Below are positions 46,114 through 64,000 of a DNA stretch of 64,000 bases, in pieces. This DNA comes from an uncultured virus (IMG/VR IMGVR_UViG_3300042429_000720) (taxonomy: Duplodnaviria; Heunggongvirae; Uroviricota; Caudoviricetes), in IMG/VR virus record IMGVR_UViG_3300042429_000720, one strand, 5' to 3'. A program made the translations under genes and the position numbers. Position 1 is the stretch's first letter. Each line of letters begins with the position of its first letter. The notes below the pieces were generated by a model, which saw only the letters and a program-made list of their open reading frames with translations, had not been told where the DNA came from and did not search any database.

Positions 46114-46989
46114 ATGGCAAAACACGTTGTAGTTTCGTTATCTGGAGGAATGGATTCCTCAACACTCTTGCTTAGAGCATTGAGTGAATTTGATACTGTA
46201 ACAGCAGTATCGTTTGACTACGGTCAAAAACACCGAGTAGAGCTTGAACGAGCTCAAGACCTGGTTAACTATTTGAATCTTAGAGCTGATGAGACTAAGT
46301 ATAAAAGCGATGTAGCTGAAGTTATTATGCATCACTTTCCTAAAGTTAACTACCAGTTAATTAAACTTGACGGCTTGAGTCAACTACTAAACTCGGCTCT
46401 AGTAACTGGAGGTGATGAAGTACCGGAAGGTCACTATGCTGCCGAGAACATGAAAGCTACCGTAGTACCTAACCGAAATAAAATCTTCAGTTCAATCACC
46501 CAGGCAATCGCTTTATCTATCGCAAATGAAACAAAAGAAGAATGCTCCATCGCTCTCGGTATCCATGCCGGAGACCATGACATCTACCCAGACTGCCGAC
46601 AGGAGTTCCGCGACGCCGACGATCATGCGTTTCGTATGGGTAACTGGGATAACGATCGGGTATCTTATTGGACTCCTTACCTGGAAGGTAATAAGTTTAC
46701 TATCTTAGAAGATGGAGAGAAGTTATGTGAGGAACTAGGACTTGAATTTGATGAAGTCTATAAGCGCACTAATACCTCTTATAAACCCATTAAGTGGTAC
46801 AGTCGCAAAGAAACCAATGCATACGAATGGTACTCAGACTACAAATCAGCTTCTTCAGTAGAACGAGTTGAAGCATTTATCAAGCTAGGGCGTCCTGATC
46901 CTGCACCTTATGCTGACGAGACTGGCCCTGTGACCTGGGAGCACGTTGTGACCGAAGTATCTAAAGTACTTGAATCGCATACAAAGTAA
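46114..46989 (+). CDS. queC: 7-cyano-7-deazaguanine synthase
   Basis: SLSGGMDSST, FDYGQKH, VVPNRN, YPDCR. Confidence 0.93.
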   Translation: MAKHVVVSLSGGMDSSTLLLRALSEFDTVTAVSFDYGQKHRVELERAQDLVNYLNLRADETKYKSDVAEVIMHHFPKVNYQLIKLDGLSQLLNSALVTGGDEVPEGHYAAENMKATVVPNRNKIFSSITQAIALSIANETKEECSIALGIHAGDHDIYPDCRQEFRDADDHAFRMGNWDNDRVSYWTPYLEGNKFTILEDGEKLCEELGLEFDEVYKRTNTSYKPIKWYSRKETNAYEWYSDYKSASSVERVEAFIKLGRPDPAPYADETGPVTWEHVVTEVSKVLESHTK

Positions 46990-52669: not shown

Positions 52670-52700
52670 TTGTAGATTCAACTATTTATTCTTATATTGT
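52670..52700 (+). promoter_or_regulatory. Bacteroidetes-type promoter (TTG-N20-TATATT)
   Basis: TTG at 52670-52672 and TATATT at 52693; same spacing at about 11 other sites. Confidence 0.7.
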
Positions 52701-52702
52701 AT

Positions 52703-52735
52703 AGGTGTCGTAGCACCACCTTAAAAAAACACTAA
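52703..52735 (+). ncRNA. preQ1 class I-like riboswitch aptamer
   Basis: P1 AGGTG/CACCT, loop TCGTAGCAC, tail T-A7-C-ACTAA; upstream of ORF-queD-queE. Confidence 0.75.
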
Positions 52736-52736
52736 T

Positions 52737-53012
52737 ATGGCAAAAAAGCAGTTATTGACTGAACCGGTCCTTCCTAAGGACAGTATTATCAATCCCGAAC
52801 TCTACCACAAGGTAAAAGGGACCAATTCTAAGATTGATACCAAGTTTAAGCACTTGGAGAAGATGCCTGATCAAAAATGGCATCAAATTATTTCTTTTAT
52901 TAAATCTGGCGTTCGAATTGTAGGCTACGGAATCATTCCTTTTGATTTGGTAGCAGCTGCAATCGTTCTTATATTTAGTGAAGTAATCGGTATTATTGAA
53001 GAATTAGTATGA
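52737..53012 (+). CDS. Small membrane protein preceding queD
   Basis: Hydrophobic C-terminal half; ATGA-coupled to queD. Confidence 0.6.
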   Translation: MAKKQLLTEPVLPKDSIINPELYHKVKGTNSKIDTKFKHLEKMPDQKWHQIISFIKSGVRIVGYGIIPFDLVAAAIVLIFSEVIGIIEELV

Positions 53013-53473
53013 GCACATTTAGATCAACAAAAGTATTTGATGGTTACTCAACAGTATTCCGTCAATGGAAAGCCGAAGGAACACACTGCAGATTCCTTCA
53101 CGGCTATGGAGTAAGTTTAAAAGTATGGTTCGAAGGTGAACTTGACGAACGTAACTGGGTATGGGATTTCGGAGGTATGAAACGTGCTACTGGAACTATT
53201 GACGGTATGAATCCTAAAGCATGGATGGATCATATGCTCGACCATACTACAATTATTGCAGAAGATGATCCGTATCTTTCTTACTTCCAGAATATGTACA
53301 CAGAAGGTATGATTCAATTACGAGTTATTCCAGCTACTGGAGCAGAGCGTTTTGCAGAGTATTTCTACAATAAACTGAATACATTTATTCAAGAAGAAAC
53401 AGATAATCGTGTTAAAGTAGTTCAAGTTGAATTTCGTGAGCACGAAAAGAACACAGCATTTTATAAAGGTTAA
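53009..53473 (+). CDS. queD: 6-carboxy-5,6,7,8-tetrahydropterin synthase
   Basis: CRFLHGY, WVWDFG, LDHT, GAERFA; adjacent to queE. Confidence 0.88.
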   Translation: MSTFRSTKVFDGYSTVFRQWKAEGTHCRFLHGYGVSLKVWFEGELDERNWVWDFGGMKRATGTIDGMNPKAWMDHMLDHTTIIAEDDPYLSYFQNMYTEGMIQLRVIPATGAERFAEYFYNKLNTFIQEETDNRVKVVQVEFREHEKNTAFYKG

Positions 53474-53475
53474 TT

Positions 53476-54258
53476 ATGCCATTAGGAAGAATAGAAGATT
53501 ATAGTAAAGTTCTACCGATTGTAGAGCTTTACACTTGCATCCAGTCAGAAGGCAGCCGTGCCGGCCGTCCTACTGTTGCAGTCCGTACTACAGGCTGTAC
53601 CCACCGCTGCTACTTCGGAGAAGGCGGATGGTGTGATAGCTGGTACACTTCAATCCATCCGGAGAAAGGTAAATACACTTTCCAGGATATTATCAACATT
53701 TACGATCAGAATCCTGAAATTAAGGAGATGATGCTGACGGGCGGTTCACCGACCATGCACCCTAAGCTTGTAAATGAACTAACTCACTTTGCAAATGAAA
53801 GGCAAATTATCATCACAATCGAAACAGAAGGGTCTGCTTTCCTCGAAACAGATCATCCTATTGGGCTTATATCTTTCAGCCCTAAATTTAGCAACAGCGT
53901 GCCTGTACTTGGGACTACTACACCTCTTGGGGATATTGTAGACGAGAAACTTATCAAGACTCACAACCGTTACCGTCTCAATAAAGAGTCGATTGCTAAG
54001 TCAATGACTTACCATTCGGACTACCATATGAAGGTAGTAGTAAACCCAGTGGAGGACCCTCAGACATGGGCAGAGATTAAGTCTTTCCTAGATGAACTAC
54101 AGGTACCTAAGCATAAGATTTGGATCATGCCTCCGGGGGATAATCGTCAGGAACTTATCCGAGTTTACCCAGCGGTAATTCAATGGTGTACAGACAATAT
54201 GTACAACTTCACCGGCCGTGAACACATCATTGCTTTTGATACTAAAAGAGAAGTTTAA
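53476..54258 (+). CDS. queE: 7-carboxy-7-deazaguanine synthase (radical SAM)
   Basis: IQSEG..AG.P...VRTTGCTHRC..CDS, LTGGSP, IETEG, SPK. Confidence 0.9.
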   Translation: MPLGRIEDYSKVLPIVELYTCIQSEGSRAGRPTVAVRTTGCTHRCYFGEGGWCDSWYTSIHPEKGKYTFQDIINIYDQNPEIKEMMLTGGSPTMHPKLVNELTHFANERQIIITIETEGSAFLETDHPIGLISFSPKFSNSVPVLGTTTPLGDIVDEKLIKTHNRYRLNKESIAKSMTYHSDYHMKVVVNPVEDPQTWAEIKSFLDELQVPKHKIWIMPPGDNRQELIRVYPAVIQWCTDNMYNFTGREHIIAFDTKREV

Positions 54259-54612: not shown

Positions 54613-54804
54613 ATGACATTAGGACAGGTTATAACAGTAGGAGATGATTGGTACCAGGTTATTAGAACAGTTAGAGAAGGTCGTGAATGGGATGTTGAAC
54701 TTCTTAAACAGTACTGGTTTTGTTCGCATACCTTCCGTAAGGATGGTTTACTCTATTTTTGCCGAGCGATTGAAAAAGTTGAATTTGAAGAAATAACAGA
54801 GTGA
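54613..54804 (+). CDS. Hypothetical protein
   Basis: 63-aa ORF; two further small ORFs at 54258-54437 and 54437-54610 fill the gap. Confidence 0.5.
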   Translation: MTLGQVITVGDDWYQVIRTVREGREWDVELLKQYWFCSHTFRKDGLLYFCRAIEKVEFEEITE

Positions 54805-55475
54805 TTGCAATACTAGGAGGAACAGGGTTGCTGGGAAAAGAGTTACAAAAGCTAGATTCTTCCTTAGTCTGTACGGGCCGGGAAATTGATATTACTAACT
54901 TTAAAGAAGTCTTCTACTACCTTAATAAAGTAAACCCGGATACTGTAGTCAACGCAGCTGCAATAACAAATTCCATAGAGGTTTCTGAGAATCCTATTCC
55001 TGCTATAGACGTTAATATTATAGGTGCTGCTAATATAGCTAAGTACTGTCAGCAATATGGTAAGAGATTGGTATATATTAGCACAGACTACGTCTATCCC
55101 GGAACTGGTAACCATGTAGAGGATGATGCTCTATACCCAAATAACGAATATGCGTGGACTAAATTAGGGGGAGAATGTTCTTCTAGATTGGTGAAAGATC
55201 ATTGTATAATTCGTACTAGTTTTGGAAGTAGAAAATTTCCTTATCCTGCTGCATATATAAATTTATTTACAAGTAAAGAATACGTAGGTGTGCTTGCTCC
55301 TCAAATCTTAAAAATTATACAGAGTAAACTTAACGGAATTGTAAATGTAGGAGGTTACAGAAAAAGTTCATATATTTACGCATCACAGTACAGCAAGGTT
55401 GACAAAATTCAATTAGAACATAGTAAAGATTTTAGCCTAAACACAGCAAAATATAATGAGAATTTCCCAGAGTGA
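54801..55475 (+). CDS. RmlD-like NAD(P)-dependent sugar reductase
   Basis: GGTGLLG, NAAA, ISTDYVY, YAWTK, IIRT. Confidence 0.85.
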   Translation: MIAILGGTGLLGKELQKLDSSLVCTGREIDITNFKEVFYYLNKVNPDTVVNAAAITNSIEVSENPIPAIDVNIIGAANIAKYCQQYGKRLVYISTDYVYPGTGNHVEDDALYPNNEYAWTKLGGECSSRLVKDHCIIRTSFGSRKFPYPAAYINLFTSKEYVGVLAPQILKIIQSKLNGIVNVGGYRKSSYIYASQYSKVDKIQLEHSKDFSLNTAKYNENFPE

Positions 55476-56688
55476 TTCATGCCCGATAACCGGAACTTCA
55501 GAAAGACTTAAGTACTTTTCTCTAGGCGAAATGCCGCTTGTTAATAATCTTGCCGATACTTTAGAAGAATCTTTAACCTGCAAAAAGATTCCTTTAGAAC
55601 TAAACTATTTTGCAGAATCAAAACTTACTGCTTTAACTACTTTTGTAGACAGTCAGTCTTTGTTTAGTAACTACCTTTACAAGTCTGGAGTTAACACTCC
55701 CTACATTTCTCATAGTAGAAAAATGTTCAAAGATGTACGGAAGCTCTTACAACTTAAAGACCAGGACCTTATTGTAGACATTGGAGGTAATGATGGAACA
55801 CTTCTTAAAACTTTTCGAGAAACTTCTAAAACATCCCTACAGTACCTAAATATTGATGGTTCTGAAAACATCACACAGTACTCTAAAGAACAGGGAATTA
55901 ATACACTCTGCGAGTTTTTTAATGAAGATACCCCTACCCGAGTTAAAACTTTAGCCAAAGTTGTTGTATCCACAAATGTTTTTCAACATTTACAGGATAC
56001 TAATTCTTTTGTTAGAGGGGTAAAAAAACTTCTACAATCAGACGGTGTATGGGTACTAGAATTTCCGTACTGGCTTCATGATATGAAGACCAAGCAATTT
56101 GACCAGGTGTACCATGAGCATATGTACTACTACACAGTTACTCCGCTAGTAGCAATGATGCAAAAACACGAGTTGGAAGTTTTACGAGTAGTTCCTCAAA
56201 AAATACATGGAGGTACTTTGCGTCTAATCATAGGGCATTTAGGAGGTAATCAACACCTAAAAGATAGTAGTGTAGAAGTTTACCTAAAGAGAGAATCTAA
56301 ACTTACACCCAAGTTCTACCAGCAGTGGGGAGCAAAAATTAAACAGCATTTGGTATCCTGTGAGAGTGAACTAAAGTACCTAAAAGGTAAAGGTAAGACC
56401 CTGGTAGGATTTGCTGCAAGTGCTAAGGGATGTGTCTTTCTAAACAGTGCCGGGATAGATTGTAAAGTACTTGATTTCATTATCGATGATACTGATATAA
56501 AACAAGGCAAATTTATGCCGGGTACCGGACTAGAAATTAAAGGGAGAGGAGATGTAGATTTTGAACAAATTGATTACATTCTTATACTCTCTCATAATTT
56601 TAGTGATCATATCATAAAAAGTCTTAAAGACGAAGGATATGAAGGTAAGTTTGTTGTGTGTTTACCTTCTTATAAAGTACTATCATGA
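55456..56688 (+). CDS. NDP-hexose C-methyltransferase-like protein
   Basis: LGEMPLVN, DIGGNDG, FDQVYHEH, IHGGTLR, FAASAKG, KQGKFMPG. Confidence 0.85.
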   Translation: MRISQSDSCPITGTSERLKYFSLGEMPLVNNLADTLEESLTCKKIPLELNYFAESKLTALTTFVDSQSLFSNYLYKSGVNTPYISHSRKMFKDVRKLLQLKDQDLIVDIGGNDGTLLKTFRETSKTSLQYLNIDGSENITQYSKEQGINTLCEFFNEDTPTRVKTLAKVVVSTNVFQHLQDTNSFVRGVKKLLQSDGVWVLEFPYWLHDMKTKQFDQVYHEHMYYYTVTPLVAMMQKHELEVLRVVPQKIHGGTLRLIIGHLGGNQHLKDSSVEVYLKRESKLTPKFYQQWGAKIKQHLVSCESELKYLKGKGKTLVGFAASAKGCVFLNSAGIDCKVLDFIIDDTDIKQGKFMPGTGLEIKGRGDVDFEQIDYILILSHNFSDHIIKSLKDEGYEGKFVVCLPSYKVLS

Positions 56689-57461
56689 ATTCAATCCCAG
56701 TAATAGGAACAGCAATTGTAAACACGCCCTACTGGCTATACCGGCTGATTGCTAGTGTAGACTACCCGGTGGATAACTTTGTTATCTTTAATAACAACGG
56801 TCGAGGAGAAATCACAGAAGAGCTTGACAATCTAGCTAAACTCTCTCATAAGTTTATTAAGAAAATTACAGTATGCCACTTACCTGCTAATCTAGGTGTG
56901 CCTGGAGCATTTAACCTTATTATAAAAAGTTATATAAATTCTCCTAGCTGGTTGATAGTAAACTACGATGTAGCTTTTGGACCAGGCTTCTTAAAAGAGA
57001 TGGCAGAGAAAGCTTCTGACCCGGAAGTAGGAATGGTACATGGTAAAGCAGGTGATTTTGATTTACCGAGCTGGGATGTATTCCTAATTAAAGACTGGGT
57101 AGTACAGCAGTACGGACTCTTTGACGAAAACTTAACCCCAGCTTACTGCGAAGATGCAGATTATTTTATGAGATTTGTGCATAGGCCTATAAAAGTAGTA
57201 AAGCAGCTAGACAGTATTTATTACCACGGCCCTGGTGTAGATTACTACGAACACGGAAGTCAAACCAAAAAAGGAGAACCTGCACTAGCAGCAAAATTAG
57301 ATCAGGTTAACGAAATAAATTTTGAATATATGTTTAAAAAGTGGGGTGAAGGTTGGAGATGGGTAAACCCACTACCTACACCTTTTGATATAGAAGGAAC
57401 TCCTATCTCAACAACTACTTTTGATTTAGAATTTGTACGCAAAAAACATTTAGGCTTTTAA
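56685..57461 (+). CDS. Glycosyltransferase family 2-like
   Basis: NLGVPGAFN, IVNYDV, GLFDENLTPAYCEDADY. Confidence 0.8.
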   Translation: MNSIPVIGTAIVNTPYWLYRLIASVDYPVDNFVIFNNNGRGEITEELDNLAKLSHKFIKKITVCHLPANLGVPGAFNLIIKSYINSPSWLIVNYDVAFGPGFLKEMAEKASDPEVGMVHGKAGDFDLPSWDVFLIKDWVVQQYGLFDENLTPAYCEDADYFMRFVHRPIKVVKQLDSIYYHGPGVDYYEHGSQTKKGEPALAAKLDQVNEINFEYMFKKWGEGWRWVNPLPTPFDIEGTPISTTTFDLEFVRKKHLGF

Positions 57462-57462
57462 T

Positions 57463-58137
57463 ATGGACGAATATACTTTATACGACGCTGAACCGGATTC
57501 ACAGTGGGGAATCATTACAGGAAATTTAGCACAACACAACCCTCAGCAGAATCCACGATTCTGGGTGGTTGATAATTTTTATAAGAATCCCGACCAAATT
57601 AGGGAGTACGGTCTCTCGCAAGTATACTTTGAGGGGGAAGGAGCAGTGGGTTGGAGAACCCGTAAGCAGTTCCTTTTTGATGGACTCAAAGAGCAGTTTG
57701 AAAAAATTACAAACAAGAAGATTTTAGATCATACCCCGGAAGGAACCGGCTGGTACGATGTAGGTATTAACGGACGCTTCCAGGCCTGTGAAGCAGGAAC
57801 TAAGACGGTATTTCACTGCGATAGCCAGCAATGGGCTGCAGTTCTCTATCTAACTCCAGATGCTCCTCCCCAGAGCGGTACTAGCTTCTACCGACATAAG
57901 GAGACTAAAGTTAGACATAGTTCTGAGATTGCTTGGGGTACCGGGGAAGAACTGGCCACATTTAATCAAAAGACCTTTGTTGATCCTACTCCTTTTGAGA
58001 GAGTAGATACAGTTGGTAACGTTTATAACAGGCTTGTTATTTTTGATGGAAAGCTTATTCACTCCGGTAATGATTACTTTGGATGGGATATTCCTTCTAG
58101 CAGGTTCTTTCAAATTTTCTTTTTTGATGTTGAGTAA
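57463..58137 (+). CDS. 2OG-Fe(II) oxygenase-like protein
   Basis: VVDNFY, HCD, AVLYLTP, GTSFY, NRLVIFD...H, R-x-x-Q. Confidence 0.75.
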   Translation: MDEYTLYDAEPDSQWGIITGNLAQHNPQQNPRFWVVDNFYKNPDQIREYGLSQVYFEGEGAVGWRTRKQFLFDGLKEQFEKITNKKILDHTPEGTGWYDVGINGRFQACEAGTKTVFHCDSQQWAAVLYLTPDAPPQSGTSFYRHKETKVRHSSEIAWGTGEELATFNQKTFVDPTPFERVDTVGNVYNRLVIFDGKLIHSGNDYFGWDIPSSRFFQIFFFDVE

Positions 58138-61386: not shown

Positions 61387-61882
61387 TATTAAAGAGATCG
61401 AAATCCAGACTAAAATCCTTGCCAAGAAGATTTCAGCTGAACACCAAGGAGACAAAACTCCCGTTGTAATGGTAGGACTGTTGAACGGAGCATTTATGTT
61501 CTATGCAGACCTGGTACGCAATATGGGCATTGATGTGGAATGTGACTTCATGAGAGTTAAAAGCTACACAGCCCAGTTCAAGCAAGGAGATATTAAGATT
61601 ATTAAAGATCTCGAGACTCCTATCAGAGGAAAGCACGTGTACCTGGTAGACGATATCTACGATACCGGCTCTACTATGAAAGCATTAATTGAGTACCTAG
61701 AGGTAAAAAAGCCCGCCTCTATCTCAATTGTAACTCTACTCCGTAGAGAAACCTCTCCAATCCCGGATCAAGCCTTCTACAAGTACCATGCATTCACCAT
61801 CAAGGATGAATGGGTAGTAGGATTTGGAATGGATGACGAAAAAGGTTATTCAAGAAATCTCAATGGAGTATTTGCTCTGTAA
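61370..61882 (+). CDS. hpt: Hypoxanthine-guanine phosphoribosyltransferase
   Basis: LLNGAFMF.ADL, LVDDIYDTGST, WVVGFGMD. Confidence 0.9.
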   Translation: MQSLFDIKEIEIQTKILAKKISAEHQGDKTPVVMVGLLNGAFMFYADLVRNMGIDVECDFMRVKSYTAQFKQGDIKIIKDLETPIRGKHVYLVDDIYDTGSTMKALIEYLEVKKPASISIVTLLRRETSPIPDQAFYKYHAFTIKDEWVVGFGMDDEKGYSRNLNGVFAL

Positions 61883-61901
61883 GAGAAGTTTTCGTATATT
61901 A
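61872..61901 (+). promoter_or_regulatory. Bacteroidetes-type promoter (TTG-N20-TATATT)
   Basis: TTG at 61872-61874 and TATATT at 61895. Confidence 0.7.
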
Positions 61902-61905
61902 AACA

Positions 61906-61938
61906 AAGGTGTTCGAAGCACCACCTTAAAAAAACAAT
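61906..61938 (+). ncRNA. preQ1 class I-like riboswitch aptamer
   Basis: P1 AAGGTG/CACCTT, loop TTCGAAGCAC, tail A7-C-AAT; immediately upstream of folE. Confidence 0.75.
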
Positions 61939-61941
61939 TAT

Positions 61942-62652
61942 ATGGCAGATAAAAAACGTTATGATGTAGAGTTAGCTCAAGCCGGCTTTGCCAACGGTAT
62001 TTCCTCTCAACTGGCAGAGAAATTTAACATGCATAAGATGAACGATATCTCTCTTACCGAACAAGAGAAATACGTTATTATTGAAAGAGCAGCTAAAGCA
62101 TTCGGTGAGTTTCTCGATGCATTAGGAGTTGATTGGAAGAACGATCCTAACTCTTCAGATACTCCACGTCGTGTAGCAAAAGCTTATGTAAACGATTTAT
62201 GGTACGGCCGATTCAATCCTATGCCTGCTATCACAGCCTTCCCTTCAGATGGTTACGACGGCATTGTATTTGAAGGAAATATTCCTTTGACTTCGATGTG
62301 TTCACATCACCATCAGACCATTACCGGTCGAGTTCATATCGGCTACATCCCCTCTAAGGACGGAAAGGTAATCGGGCTTTCTAAACTGAATCGTATTGTA
62401 GAGCATTTCGGCCGTCGAGGAGCTATTCAGGAGCAGCTTACTGTTGCTATCCATAACGCAGTTGATACTGTGTGTGAAGGTAACCTTGGAGTAGCTGTAA
62501 TGATTGAGGCAGGTCATAACTGTGTATCATGCCGAGGCACCAAGCACGCCGGTGCATCAATGAAAACATCAAAGCTTTCAGGCAGCTTCCTTGAAGAAGA
62601 TTCAGCCCGTGCAGAGTTTTATGAATTTGTAAAAGGATACGCATGCAAGTAA
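61942..62652 (+). CDS. folE: GTP cyclohydrolase I
   Basis: TPRRVAKAY, SMCSHH, GLSKLNR, IQEQLT, HNCVSCRG. Confidence 0.95.
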   Translation: MADKKRYDVELAQAGFANGISSQLAEKFNMHKMNDISLTEQEKYVIIERAAKAFGEFLDALGVDWKNDPNSSDTPRRVAKAYVNDLWYGRFNPMPAITAFPSDGYDGIVFEGNIPLTSMCSHHHQTITGRVHIGYIPSKDGKVIGLSKLNRIVEHFGRRGAIQEQLTVAIHNAVDTVCEGNLGVAVMIEAGHNCVSCRGTKHAGASMKTSKLSGSFLEEDSARAEFYEFVKGYACK

Positions 62653-63137
62653 AATTTGTTGACGAAGTAGAACTATTTAATTCTACCTTCGGTAAGCCGA
62701 ATAACTACACCCCTATCATTCCTAATGATAAGAAGCTTACAGACTTTGTTGTTAACTTTATTAAAGAAGAAACCGATGAACTCGCCGAAGCAATCGAAAA
62801 TAAAGACATCGTGGAAGTGTTGGATGCTATTTGTGATCTCCTGTATGTTGCCGTGGGCAATGCTACTATGGTCTTTGGCCTCAAAGATAAGTTAGAGGCA
62901 GCTTACGCTGAGGTACAGGCATCGAATATGTCTAAGAGCTGTGAGACCTACGATGAAGCAATGGAAACTATCGATGCTCATTATAAAGACCATGGTACTT
63001 GTTACACTCGCCAGGTGGGAGATCGATGGGTTGTATACCGTGAATCGGACGATAAGGTAATGAAGTCAATCAATTACTTTGCTCCTAACCTAGAGCAATT
63101 TTTTACCGAAGAAGAAATTAAAAACTCCAAGCAATGA
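62643..63137 (+). CDS. MazG-like/all-alpha NTP pyrophosphohydrolase
   Basis: EETDEL...EVLDAICD, EVQASNMSK, KVMKS. Confidence 0.8.
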   Translation: MQVKFVDEVELFNSTFGKPNNYTPIIPNDKKLTDFVVNFIKEETDELAEAIENKDIVEVLDAICDLLYVAVGNATMVFGLKDKLEAAYAEVQASNMSKSCETYDEAMETIDAHYKDHGTCYTRQVGDRWVVYRESDDKVMKSINYFAPNLEQFFTEEEIKNSKQ

Positions 63138-63322
63138 CACCCCAGCAGCTAATCGATCAAAATAAAACCTTCTCAGAAGAGTTGCAGCAATGGATTGTAC
63201 CTCTTATCTTTGTAGACGAAGCTCTTCAGATGAAAACTGCCCAGGATGTAGATGCTAGTATGAAGAGACTTGAAGAAGTAATGCAAGACCTCAACACAGT
63301 AATTAGCAAGATAAATGATTAA
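63134..63322 (+). CDS. Hypothetical protein
   Basis: 62-aa ORF. Confidence 0.5.
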   Translation: MTPQQLIDQNKTFSEELQQWIVPLIFVDEALQMKTAQDVDASMKRLEEVMQDLNTVISKIND

Positions 63323-64000
63323 AATTGCCCATGAGTCTCCAAAAGCTATTTTTAAAGAGATTCAAGAACTTACCGACTACGACTACGCTCTAGTTCACCT
63401 CTTTGAAGAGGATCCTGAATACCTTCAGAAGTTTAAGGATGCTCTGGCAGCCGGCCGAGAAGTTATTCTAGATAATTCTATTTTTGAGTTAGAAGAAGCT
63501 TTTGATGCTAATCGTTTTGCTTACTGGATTAACGAACTTAAGCCAACCTGGTACATCGTTCCTGACTCGTTAGAGAATGTAGAGAAGACTATGTCTAATA
63601 TGGCAGAATGGAATATACACTATGCTGATAAAGTTCCTGCAGAATGTAAGAAGATTGGAGTAGTACAGGGAAAGACTTACTCTCAGATAGTCAATTGCTA
63701 CGAATACATGGTCAGTATAGCCGAAGTAGATATGGTGGCAATCTCTTTCGATTACAGTTATTTCCAAGAGAAATTCCCTCATCCTAACAAATACGTTAGC
63801 TGGATGCTAGGCCGGGTACAGTTGCTAGGTCGAATGCTTAAAGACGGAGTTATTAATCCTGACGTACCTCACCACCTTTTAGGTTGCGGACTACCTCAAG
63901 AGTTTCAATTCTACCGAGAGGCTAAGTACGATTGGATTTACTCCCTAGATACTTCCAATCCTGTGGTTCACGGACTGAAGGAGATTTACTACAAAGACCA
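63315..64000 (+). CDS. TGT-fold protein, probable DpdA-like DNA 7-deazaguanine transglycosylase (3'-truncated, absent from the ORF track)
   Basis: Translated by hand: MIKIAHESP...VILDNSIFEL...IVPD...GVVQG...HHLLGC...SLDTSNP; matches the TGT-like D-x-S/G, PD, H-x-LG, SxD pattern; lies in the folE operon. Confidence 0.7.
   Translation, partial: MIKIAHESPKAIFKEIQELTDYDYALVHLFEEDPEYLQKFKDALAAGREVILDNSIFELEEAFDANRFAYWINELKPTWYIVPDSLENVEKTMSNMAEWNIHYADKVPAECKKIGVVQGKTYSQIVNCYEYMVSIAEVDMVAISFDYSYFQEKFPHPNKYVSWMLGRVQLLGRMLKDGVINPDVPHHLLGCGLPQEFQFYREAKYDWIYSLDTSNPVVHGLKEIYYKD

What the first reader, a model, noticed from the sequence alone, without database searches (positions are those of the whole stretch)
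61872..61944. Second preQ1-I-like aptamer before folE, with identical geometry: a riboswitch regulon
Seen: AAGGTG-TTCGAAGCAC-CACCTT-AAAAAAA-C-AATTAT-ATG, 9.2 kb from the first copy. It has the same stem, a variant loop and the same upstream TTG-N20-TATATT promoter. In both copies the A7 run lies at exactly -14 to -8 from the ATG. I saw this element only before deazaguanine genes. Established: Bacteroidetes translation initiation relies on upstream adenines rather than SD pairing. Inference: ligand binding sequesters the A-rich initiation region, giving an SD-independent translational OFF switch on the first committed step (FolE) and possibly on the coupled MazG-like and DpdA-like genes.
Basis: partly seen in the sequence, partly recalled or inferred. 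Interest (0 to 1): 0.9.

Follow-up and report, generated by a model that had tools for sequence, protein, structure and literature searches.

The report
Phage miniature preQ1-like riboswitch before folE
A Flavobacterium-type phage carries two copies of a very small preQ1-riboswitch-like RNA, one just before folE and one before queD-queE, so it probably senses the modified guanine base it makes for its DNA and turns down its own supply genes, although ligand binding has not been tested.

Summary
A hairpin, A7 run, C and ATG with the same spacing lie before folE (61908-61944) and before a small ORF-queD-queE operon (52704-52739). Each follows TTG-N20-TATATT.

A covariance model built from relatives finds only these two sites in the 173-kb phage genome. 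Of 80 IMG/VR folE loci, 29 carry the element, all with perfectly complementary 4-bp stems of four types. A stem-blind pattern scan found 35 more instances, each before folE or a queD-queE operon where enough downstream DNA was held. The loop (UCGNAGNAC) and tail (A-run, then C) resemble the T. tengcongensis preQ1-I type II aptamer, but P1 and the loop are each shorter.

Rfam's PreQ1 model misses the family. The folE copy scores 21.8 bits against a cut-off of 39, and 0 of 20 relatives match.

There is no Shine-Dalgarno sequence. The A-tract covers positions -12 and -13, which enhance initiation in Flavobacterium johnsoniae.

Best reading (about 0.7): a diverged preQ1-I-like translational OFF switch pair giving feedback control of 7-deazaguanine supply for DNA modification. 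Ligand binding, the transcript start and regulation are untested.

This scan reported the same class on other genomes. My literature searches found no published description.

The parts
61872..61902 (+). Promoter-like TTG-N20-TATATT(AA) before the folE copy
   Evidence: Read. The same TTG-N19-21-box arrangement was found upstream of 30 of 47 unique relatives. It only partly fits the Bacteroidetes -7 element TAHHTTTG (PMC6847099). No transcript start has been mapped.
61908..61911 (+). P1 5' strand (GGUG), folE copy. The two A residues at 61906-61907 could add two A-U pairs in this phage only.
   Evidence: 156 of 156 cells are paired and 2 of 4 pairs covary; 29 of 29 stem-blind finds have complementary stems.
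61912..61921 (+). Loop UUCGAAGCAC, comprising L1 (UUC), the P2 5' strand (GAAG) and L2 (CAC). C61921 is the putative ligand-specificity C.
   Evidence: The family loop is UCGNAGNAC; this copy alone has an extra U. Compared with the Tte loop UCGCAGUAAC taken from PMC10639078.
61922..61925 (+). P1 3' strand (CACC), folE copy
61926..61935 (+). L3-like tail UUAAAAAAA followed by the C at 61935, which is invariant by construction of the searches and could pair with loop G61918 (P2)
   Evidence: The A-run followed by C is present in all 47 unique relatives, but the pattern used to find them required it.
61942..62652 (+). folE (GTP cyclohydrolase I, 236 aa), the first gene behind the switch
   Evidence: Pfam PF01227, E 9.2e-44. 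PHROG 2197.
62643..63137 (+). MazG/PRA-PH-like nucleotide pyrophosphohydrolase, overlapping the folE stop by 10 nt
63315..64000 (+). DpdA-like gene. It runs off the window and is 276 aa in the genome.
   Evidence: PHROG 19058. DNA similarity to the gene annotated as DNA guanine transglycosylase DpdA in Flavobacterium phage vB_FspM_immuto_2-6A. The match to Pfam DpdA is only weak, E 0.15-0.2.
52670..52700 (+). Promoter-like TTG-N20-TATATT(GT) before the first copy
52704..52730 (+). First copy of the aptamer-like element: GGUG, loop UCGUAGCAC, CACC, UU, A7, C
   Evidence: R1 score 57.9 bits
52737..53012 (+). Conserved small ORF (91 aa) directly behind the first copy. Its stop overlaps the queD start.
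   Evidence: The family has invariant P, D, K, H, Q, S, F, K, S and R residues and ends in EELV. No Pfam or PHROG family matched.
53009..53473 (+). queD (6-pyruvoyl-tetrahydropterin synthase family)
53476..54258 (+). queE-like radical SAM gene
46126..46788 (+). queC match (genome place C1:45043-45705), with no aptamer in front of it
   Evidence: PF06508, 126.6 bits. One search shows no R1 hit there.

Best explanation
The 5' leader of folE, and a twin leader before small ORF-queD-queE, is a diverged, shortened relative of the class I preQ1 riboswitch aptamer. It has a 4-bp P1, a 9-10-nt loop holding U (L1), the G of P2 and the specificity C, and then an A-rich L3 followed by a C. When the phage-made free base (preQ1 or preQ0) accumulates, it binds in the pocket, the A-tract docks into the P1 minor groove, and the C with the next few bases pairs with the loop. 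The whole leader, up to 4-12 nt before the AUG, then becomes a compact pseudoknot. Flavobacterial ribosomes do not use Shine-Dalgarno pairing. They depend on an unstructured leader with adenines near -12/-13, -6 and -3, so the fold hides the initiation region and lowers translation of folE. The overlapping reading frames suggest that the mazG-like, small and dpdA-like genes are lowered with it. The result is feedback control of 7-deazaguanine supply for DNA modification.

Shown: the element, its structure by covariation, its exclusive gene context, its likeness to the Tte aptamer, and the lack of a Shine-Dalgarno sequence. Inferred: ligand identity, OFF logic, translational rather than transcriptional action, and coupling to downstream genes.
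For: (1) Recurrence beyond chance: there are two copies in the window, with 0.05 expected.

(2) Specificity: R1 finds only these two sites in the 173-kb genome at E<=10, and one site, before folE, in the whole 160-kb immuto phage.

(3) In 80 loci chosen by FolE protein similarity, 29 carry the loop plus A-run motif, and 29 of 29 have four complementary stem pairs. The CM hits the same 29.

(4) Stem types among the unique elements are GGUG/CACC, GGAG/CUCC, AGUG/CACU, UGAG/CUCA and UGUG/CACA, the first four also among the FolE loci. On A2, 156 of 156 cells pair, two pairs covary (AU 19, GC 15, UA 5; UA 28, AU 11), and 0 of 500 shuffles reach the covariation score.

(5) The loop is more conserved than the stem. 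That is expected for a binding pocket and is the reverse of a protein operator.

(6) A pattern scan of IMG/VR that did not require a stem gave 80 loci with flanks. Of these, 36 have complementary stems, and 35 of those are AT-rich with an ATG close behind. ORF sizes and Pfam on 20 of the 35 place them before FolE-sized or FolE genes or in a queD/queE operon; two 197-aa-ORF loci (L150, L154) end before any queD, and three held too little downstream DNA. Six contigs carry both copies.

(7) Likeness to Tte preQ1-I, whose sequence was read in PMC10639078: L1 is UC in both. The P2 strand is GCAG in Tte and G(U/A/G)AG here. An A precedes the specificity C, which is the type II preference stated in PMC8752633. 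The tail is A-rich and followed by CA.

(8) Rfam's PreQ1 is the best of four weak hits for the folE copy (21.8 bits, E 0.017 in 201 bases).

(9) No Shine-Dalgarno sequence is present. Positions -12 and -13 lie in the A-tract in 39 and 43 of 47 unique elements, and A-12/A-13 stimulate translation in F. johnsoniae (PMC6847099).

(10) The spacing from promoter box to P1 varies from 3 to 20 nt, while the spacing from aptamer to AUG is tight. This ties the element to the start codon.
Against: Rfam's RF00522 does not accept the element. There are no gathering hits in the window. The scores are 21.8 and 10.2 bits against a cut-off of 39. None of 20 relatives hit at E<=10, and two typical relatives gave no hit even in 81-base searches.

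P1 has only 4 conserved pairs and the loop is one base shorter than in Tte.

P2 beyond the G-C pair is not supported: the next pair (loop N with tail position +4) can form in 30 of 47 sequences, against about 26 expected from composition.

Thermodynamic folding gives no significant signal (z -0.5 to -2.4). In the window copies it prefers a hairpin shifted by 3 nt that buries the specificity C.

Under the F. johnsoniae rule (transcript start 4-5 nt after the 8-nt -7 element), the first copy would start inside P1.

Of the 80 FolE loci, 51 lack the element, as do the immuto queD operon and the 12.5 kb searched around phage phiST's queD-queE-folE genes. The control is therefore dispensable.

Rows from the pattern scan were kept because their stems pair, and A2 is fitted to the model, so the 100% pairing is partly built in. 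The unbiased figure is the 29 of 29.

There are no ligand or expression data.
Confidence: 0.7

Rival explanations
1. It is a riboswitch of the same fold, but tuned to another 7-deazaguanine of the phage pathway rather than preQ1. Candidates are preQ0 only, 7-carboxy-7-deazaguanine, or a further modified base.
For: The aptamer is shorter than all characterised preQ1-I RNAs (L2 is one base shorter, P1 has 4 bp) and is invisible to Rfam's model. The phage encodes QueC, QueF and a formyltransferase next to dpdA, so several free bases could accumulate.
Against: The positions that resemble the Tte pocket (first loop U, specificity C preceded by A, last A of the tract, and the G-C pair) are unchanged. 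Nothing in the sequence points to a different ligand.
Confidence: 0.12
2. It is a conserved leader hairpin followed by an A-rich initiation region, with no small-molecule sensing. It could be an mRNA-stabilising 5' hairpin or the binding site of a phage or host RNA-binding protein that times expression of the deazaguanine genes.
For: The hairpin sits at the very 5' end of the predicted transcript. A-rich leaders are the norm in Bacteroidetes. Rfam's threshold is not met. P2 is unsupported.
Against: A stabilising hairpin would not need a near-invariant 9-nt loop, nor one so like the Tte preQ1-I loop. The element is confined to two operons of one pathway, which is the pathway of the preQ1 ligand.
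Confidence: 0.13
3. It is a DNA-level operator: an inverted repeat bound by a dimeric repressor just downstream of the promoter.
For: It is an inverted repeat GGTG-N9/10-CACC next to a promoter-like box.
Against: The half-sites vary freely by compensatory changes, while the asymmetric spacer and the one-sided A-run followed by C are conserved. Distance to the promoter box varies from 3 to 20 nt, whereas distance to the ATG is tight. The element always lies on the sense strand.
Confidence: 0.03
4. It is a chance resemblance with no function.
For: The Rfam hit alone is weak: E 0.017 in 201 bases, which would be about 5 over the whole window.
Against:: recurrence, covariation and a fixed gene context across dozens of phage contigs.
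Confidence: 0.01

Closest known systems
preQ1-I riboswitch, type II, Thermoanaerobacter tengcongensis translational aptamer (covered by Rfam RF00522)
   Same: A hairpin followed by an A-rich tail. L1 is UC. The P2 5' strand is G-N-A-G. An A precedes the specificity C, the tail ends in an A-run followed by CA, and the element sits directly before the start of a queuosine-precursor gene. The Tte sequence was read in PMC10639078 and the type rule in PMC8752633.
   Different: P1 has 4 conserved pairs rather than 5. The loop is 9 nt rather than 10, although the folE copy here has 10 through an extra U in L1. L3 is shorter in most relatives. No Shine-Dalgarno sequence is sequestered; the AUG follows 4-12 nt after the C. 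Rfam's model scores it at 21.8 bits or less against a cut-off of 39. It controls phage genes for DNA modification, not tRNA queuosine genes.
Canonical preQ1-I in a Flavobacteriaceae genome (G034, locus L247) before a Vut_1/YhhQ-type transporter
   Same: The host phylum is the same, the AUG follows the aptamer closely without a Shine-Dalgarno sequence, and the gene belongs to the preQ pathway.
   Different: That RNA scores 50 bits on RF00522, has a 12-nt loop with U before the specificity C and a CUAA tail (type I-like), and precedes a transporter. It was found in only 1 of 151 genomes searched. The phage variant (R1) was not found convincingly in any of the 151.
folE leader of Flavobacterium phage vB_FspM_immuto_2-6A (MW353175.1)
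   Same: The same element (GGAG, loop UCGUAGAAC, CUCC, AUAAAAAC) lies 33 nt before folE and behind TTG-N20-TATATT. The gene order folE, mazG-like, dpdA, formyltransferase, kinase-like, queF is the same. R1 scores it at 59.1 bits.
   Different: It is not annotated in that record. That phage has only the folE copy and none before queD. Its stem differs from the window's by a compensatory U-A to A-U change.
Earlier reports of this scan on other genomes (e1-5743791, e1-8003811, e1-6143351, e1-6076195)
   Same: They describe the same pair of miniature preQ1-like hairpins before folE and queD-queE in Flavobacterium-type phages.
   Different: They concern other DNA. They are AI notes and not independent evidence. 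I re-derived the claims here from this window and from my own searches.

Membership tests
preQ1-I riboswitch (Rfam RF00522) | Covariance-model score at or above the curated gathering score (39 bits) | tested here: not met
   There are no gathering hits in the window. The folE copy scores 21.8 bits and the first copy 10.2 bits. None of 20 relatives hit at E<=10, and there was no hit in 81-base searches of a GGAG-type and an AGUG-type relative.
preQ1-I riboswitch (Rfam RF00522) | P1 helix supported by compensatory changes | tested here: met
   29 of 29 stem-blind finds are fully complementary. On A2, 156 of 156 cells pair, 2 of 4 pairs covary and 0 of 500 shuffles reach the score. Five stem types occur. 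Only 4 pairs are conserved, against 5 in Tte and Bsu.
preQ1-I riboswitch (Rfam RF00522) | Pocket nucleotides: U opening the loop, specificity C closing it (preceded by A in type II), an A-rich L3, and a loop G pairing with the C after the A-tract | tested here: met
   All four are present in both window copies and in the 47 unique relatives. Part of this was required by the search patterns. The type rule comes from PMC8752633. That these bases contact the ligand is recalled from the solved structures, not read in a call.
preQ1-I riboswitch (Rfam RF00522) | P2 pseudoknot of about 4 pairs between the loop and the 3' tail | tested here: inconclusive
   Only the G-C pair is constant. The next pair can form in 30 of 47 sequences, against about 26 expected. 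All four loops with G at that place have C or U opposite, but they represent about two lineages.
preQ1-I riboswitch (Rfam RF00522) | Expression platform that hides a Shine-Dalgarno sequence or forms a terminator | tested here: not met
   There is no Shine-Dalgarno-like sequence between the aptamer and the AUG; one relative, L031, has GGAG. There is no U-run terminator. The AUG follows 4-12 nt after the C.
preQ1-I riboswitch (Rfam RF00522) | Location in the 5' leader of preQ/queuosine pathway genes | tested here: met
   The genes behind the two copies are folE and small ORF-queD-queE. The context is the same in relatives.
preQ1-I riboswitch (Rfam RF00522) | Selective binding of preQ1 or preQ0 and ligand-dependent gene control | not testable with these tools
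   No binding or expression data exist. Metatranscriptome contigs only show that folE 5' sequence from 61914 onward occurs in RNA libraries.
Phage 7-deazaguanine DNA-modification cluster (DpdA type) | FolE, QueD, QueE and QueC (with or without QueF) plus a DpdA transglycosylase in one phage genome | tested here: met
   FolE, QueD and QueE. QueC. QueF and a formyltransferase. The DpdA-like gene rests on PHROG 19058 and DNA similarity to the annotated immuto DpdA; its Pfam DpdA match is only E 0.15-0.2.

The most novel reading that the evidence does not exclude
These phage leaders are a distinct miniature subclass of preQ1-I aptamer, about 28-33 nt, with a 4-bp P1 and a 9-nt loop, invisible to Rfam's model. 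In this reading it works without any Shine-Dalgarno sequence. Ligand binding folds away the very adenines (-12/-13) and the start-proximal bases that Bacteroidetes ribosomes need, and a two-switch regulon (folE operon plus queD-queE operon) lets the phage match synthesis of its DNA-modifying base to demand during infection.
Probability: 0.55. Interest if true: 0.75.

Novelty: new variant of a known kind. Interest (0 to 1): 0.62.

Why it matters
If the RNA binds preQ1 or preQ0, four things follow.

- Phages would be shown to regulate DNA hypermodification chemistry by metabolite feedback, and not only by timing of transcription.
- It would give a natural example of a riboswitch acting on Shine-Dalgarno-independent initiation. 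This is directly testable with the F. johnsoniae reporter system of PMC6847099.
- It would be among the smallest natural aptamers, which is useful as a compact switch for Bacteroidota engineering.
- It would show that Rfam's PreQ1 model misses a whole phage-borne branch, so riboswitch censuses of viral metagenomes undercount.

The element is also a handy marker for deazaguanine gene clusters in uncultured phages.

Tried and rejected
1. Third Rfam PreQ1 hit in the genome (C1:119428-119470, 19.8 bits). By eye it is a 5-bp hairpin with a GGAA loop followed by an A-rich leader. R1 does not hit it. Rejected.

2. A descriptor hit at C1:70285 (AGTC, 10-nt loop, GACT, TTAAAAC). It lies at the end of a small ORF after groEL and has no R1 hit. 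Chance.

3. R1 in 151 Flavobacteriaceae-family genomes gave one hit at 28.8 bits. It lacks the loop motif. Chance.

4. R1 on 27 FolE loci from bacterial and archaeal assemblies gave one hit (L216, 33.5 bits, 3-bp stem) on a 61-kb contig of a metagenome-assembled genome. Not followed up.

5. Around the Cellulophaga phage phiST queD-queE-folE operon the best R1 score was 22 bits, before an unrelated gene. That phage lacks the element in the 12.5 kb searched.

6. RNA evidence. Four lake-water metatranscriptome runs gave one short contig each (151-232 nt) over folE. The leftmost starts at 61914 and none covers 61500-61913. Contigs cannot show a transcript start and DNA may be present in such libraries, so this is not used as evidence.

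7. Thermodynamic folding gave no significant z-scores.

8. A P2 register using CUA/UAG, as in Bsu, is present in the first copy and a few relatives, but at variable distance. It is not a family feature.

9. Literature searches. 'preQ1 riboswitch'+phage gave 41 papers; the 20 listed were not relevant by title or abstract. riboswitch+7-deazaguanine+phage, Dp-1+riboswitch+queuosine, preQ1+riboswitch+Bacteroidetes, DpdA+riboswitch with 0 papers, and riboswitches+'viral genomes'+preQ1 also found no description of this element. The library lacks most subscription journals. The 2011 Dp-1 genome paper, which I recall may mention riboswitches, could not be checked.
Full report
**What is in the sequence**

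The folE leader reads TTG (61872-61874), 20 nt, TATATT (61895-61900), AAACAAA, GGTG (61908-61911), TTCGAAGCAC (61912-61921), CACC (61922-61925), TT, A7 (61928-61934), C (61935), AATTAT, ATG (61942). The first copy, 9205 bases upstream, reads TTG (52670-52672), 20 nt, TATATT (52693-52698), GTATA, GGTG (52704-52707), TCGTAGCAC, CACC, TT, A7 (52723-52729), C, ACTAAT, ATG (52737). The shared 18-mer occurs only at these two places in the window, even when 3 mismatches are allowed. The number expected by chance is 0.05.

**Genes**

The window is part of a 173,415-base virus record. By DNA similarity its nearest cultured relative among the phage records searched is Flavobacterium phage vB_FspM_immuto_2-6A.

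Behind the second copy lie four genes with overlapping stops and starts:
- folE (236 aa)
- a MazG/PRA-PH-like pyrophosphohydrolase
- a 62-aa ORF
- a DpdA-like gene

Just beyond the window follow a formyltransferase, an AAA_28 kinase-like protein, QueF and a family A DNA polymerase-sized ORF.

Behind the first copy lie a conserved 91-aa ORF, queD (start overlapping that ORF's stop) and queE. QueC is at window 46126-46788 and has no such leader. The phage therefore encodes a full preQ0/preQ1 pathway plus a DNA transglycosylase.

**Is the element real and specific?**

I built covariance model R1 from 17 leaders, using only the 4-bp stem as structure. In the phage's own genome it finds two sites at E<=10, the two copies, at 58.2 and 57.9 bits. 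In the whole immuto genome it finds one, before folE.

Of 80 IMG/VR loci fetched by FolE protein similarity, 29 carry the element directly before folE. One of them, L006, is identical here to the window. The other 51 have other leaders. A search of those 80 leaders for the loop and A-run alone, ignoring the stem, found the same 29, and all 29 have four complementary pairs.

Of the 80 loci that came with flanks:
- 44 have non-complementary flanks and unrelated, often GC-rich, contexts. This is roughly the level of chance matches I had estimated beforehand.
- 36 have complementary stems.
- 35 of those 36 are AT-rich with an ATG within a few bases.

Pfam on 47 downstream ORFs from 20 of these 35 loci, with ORF sizes for the rest, places them before one of four arrangements:
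- FolE, then a MazG-like or cupin gene
- the conserved small ORF, then QueD and QueE
- QueD directly (2 loci)
- a 197-aa ORF, followed in L112 by an 80-aa ORF and QueD, and in L150 and L154 by small ORFs and a thioredoxin where the fetched DNA ends before any QueD

Three further loci had too little downstream DNA to tell. Six contigs carry both copies.

**Structure**

Across 47 unique elements the stems are AGUG/CACU (27), GGUG/CACC (9), GGAG/CUCC (5), UGAG/CUCA (5) and UGUG/CACA (1). On the model-fitted alignment A2 (39 sequences), all 156 cells pair. Two of the four pairs change on both sides. No shuffle of 500 reaches the covariation score, and sliding the partner destroys pairing. That alignment is fitted to the model and many rows were kept for their pairing, so the unbiased support is the 29 of 29.

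The loop is nearly constant: UCGUAGCAC (27), UCGUAGAAC (11), UCGGAGCAC (4) and a few others. The folE copy of this window is the only one with an extra U. A variable, covarying stem around an invariant asymmetric loop and a one-sided tail is the signature of an RNA pocket, not of a protein operator.

**Comparison with preQ1-I**

The Tte aptamer sequence printed in PMC10639078 (Methods passage) has P1 CUGGG/CCCAG, loop UCGCAGUAAC and tail UUAACAAAACAAGG. The phage family has P1 of 4 bp, loop UCG(U/A/G)AG(C/A)AC and tail (A/U)UAAAAAC-A. L1, three of four P2 bases, the AC that closes the loop, the A-tract and the following CA all coincide. L2 is one base shorter and P1 one pair shorter.

PMC8752633 (Introduction and one Results section read) states that type II sequences (Tte, Bsu) prefer A before the specificity C, while type I prefer U there and CUA in the 3' platform. 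By that rule the phage elements are type II-like.

Rfam's model does not recognise them:
- nothing reaches the gathering score in the window
- 21.8 bits for the folE copy
- 10.2 bits for the first copy
- nothing at E<=10 in 20 representative relatives, nor in 81-base searches of two typical ones

The folE copy scores best only because its extra U restores the UUCG of the Rfam consensus. P2 beyond the G-C pair is not supported statistically. I therefore describe it as preQ1-I-like and probably homologous, but not a demonstrated member.

**Mechanism**

There is no Shine-Dalgarno sequence, and the AUG lies 4-12 nt (mode 6) after the C that follows the A-tract. In F. johnsoniae, mRNAs lack Shine-Dalgarno sequences and initiation is tuned by secondary structure and by upstream adenines. 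A-3 and A-6 help, and in the EF-Tu leader, which has an A-run from -14 to -10, single changes of A-12 or A-13 cost about 30% and multiple changes 50-90% (PMC6847099; abstract and passages).

In the window both A7 runs span -14 to -8. In the family, positions -12 and -13 fall inside the A-tract in 39 and 43 of 47 elements. In known preQ1-I RNAs the A-rich L3 docks in the P1 minor groove (described for the Can RNA and likened to Tte and Bsu in PMC8752633). A ligand-stabilised fold would therefore remove the initiation-enhancing adenines and leave only a few free bases before the AUG.

Coupling to downstream genes rests only on overlapping reading frames.

**Caveats**

- Under the F. johnsoniae promoter rule (8-nt -7 element, then 4-5 nt, then the start), the folE transcript would begin at 61907 or 61908, just keeping P1. 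The first copy's transcript would begin at 52705 or 52706, inside P1.
- The boxes here (TATATTAA, TATATTGT) fit that consensus only in part. The box-to-P1 spacing in relatives ranges from 3 to 20 nt, so the rule may not apply. The start must be mapped.
- Minimum-energy folding of the window copies prefers a hairpin shifted by 3 nt (GGUGU(U)/(A)GCACC), which buries the specificity C. This alternative is possible in the xGUG/GCAC variants (about three quarters of the 47 unique elements) but not in the GAAC-loop variants (11 of 47). It is therefore not a family feature. It could act as a ligand-free state in some members.
- Metatranscriptome contigs gave no usable evidence.

**Hosts**

In 151 genomes sampled from the family of a Lacinutrix assembly (Flavobacteriaceae), R1 gave one chance-like hit. 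RF00522 passed its cut-off once (50 bits), at a canonical type I-like aptamer before a Vut_1 transporter, again without a Shine-Dalgarno sequence. The phage variant was thus not found in the host-family genomes searched.

**Novelty**

Six literature searches found no description of a riboswitch on phage deazaguanine or DpdA genes. The library lacks most subscription journals. Earlier notes of this scan describe the same pair on four other genomes. One of them led me to PMC8752633.

I rate it a new variant of a known kind. It is interesting for its size, its invisibility to Rfam, its Shine-Dalgarno-less platform and its role in phage DNA modification. No experiment yet supports it.

Noticed in passing
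window 52737-53012: The first gene behind the queD-side aptamer is a conserved small protein (65-107 aa in 11 phages). It has invariant P, D, K, H, Q, S, F, K, S and R residues, a hydrophobic C-terminal half and a nearly invariant EELV end. No Pfam or PHROG family matched. It is always placed between the aptamer and queD, so it may belong to the deazaguanine pathway.
   Followed up: partly
window 61908-61922 and 52704-52718: The minimum-energy fold of both window leaders is a hairpin shifted by 3 nt (GGUGU(U) with (A)GCACC). It uses the putative specificity C. This fold is possible in the xGUG/GCAC variants but not in the GAAC-loop variants (11 of 47). It could be a ligand-free competitor structure in some members.
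   Followed up: partly
L112 1228-1821; L150 602-1195 (- strand); L154 1228-1821: In three contigs a 197-aa ORF replaces the small ORF directly behind the aptamer. It has only a weak CarS-like Pfam match, below that family's cut-off. It is followed by small ORFs and then a thioredoxin or queD. These aptamers have the UCGGAG loop and lie only 3 nt from the TATATT box, behind a G-rich inverted repeat.
   Followed up: partly
L247 (G034:C41:20088-20132, - strand): A canonical preQ1-I aptamer (RF00522, 50 bits) in one of 151 Flavobacteriaceae-family genomes. It lies directly before a Vut_1 (YhhQ-type) transporter gene, with no Shine-Dalgarno sequence before the AUG.
   Followed up: partly
window 54801-58137: Between the two switch-controlled operons lie an RmlD/epimerase-like gene, a C-methyltransferase (Methyltransf_14), a family 2 glycosyltransferase and a DUF6445 protein. 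A 347-aa thymidylate synthase homologue, a non-specific nuclease, a thioesterase and a phosphoribosyltransferase follow. This may be a second nucleotide- or sugar-modification module.
   Followed up: no
G000:C1:63004-64996 (L257 1005-2997), just beyond the window: A formyltransferase, an AAA_28 kinase-like gene and a two-domain QueF follow the dpdA-like gene, in the same order as in Flavobacterium phage vB_FspM_immuto_2-6A. I recall, from no call, that a formylated preQ1 base was reported in that phage's DNA.
   Followed up: no
G000:C1:119428-119470 (L003 1501-1543): Rfam PreQ1 gives 19.8 bits here. The sequence is a 5-bp hairpin with a GGAA loop and an A-rich leader before an unannotated ORF. 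R1 does not match it. It shows how A-rich Bacteroidetes-type leaders can mimic the preQ1 tail.
   Followed up: partly
L031 1447-1491: One relative has a U rather than an A before the specificity C (loop UCGAAGUUC), and a GGAG between the aptamer and the AUG. It is the only Shine-Dalgarno-like platform seen in the family.
   Followed up: no
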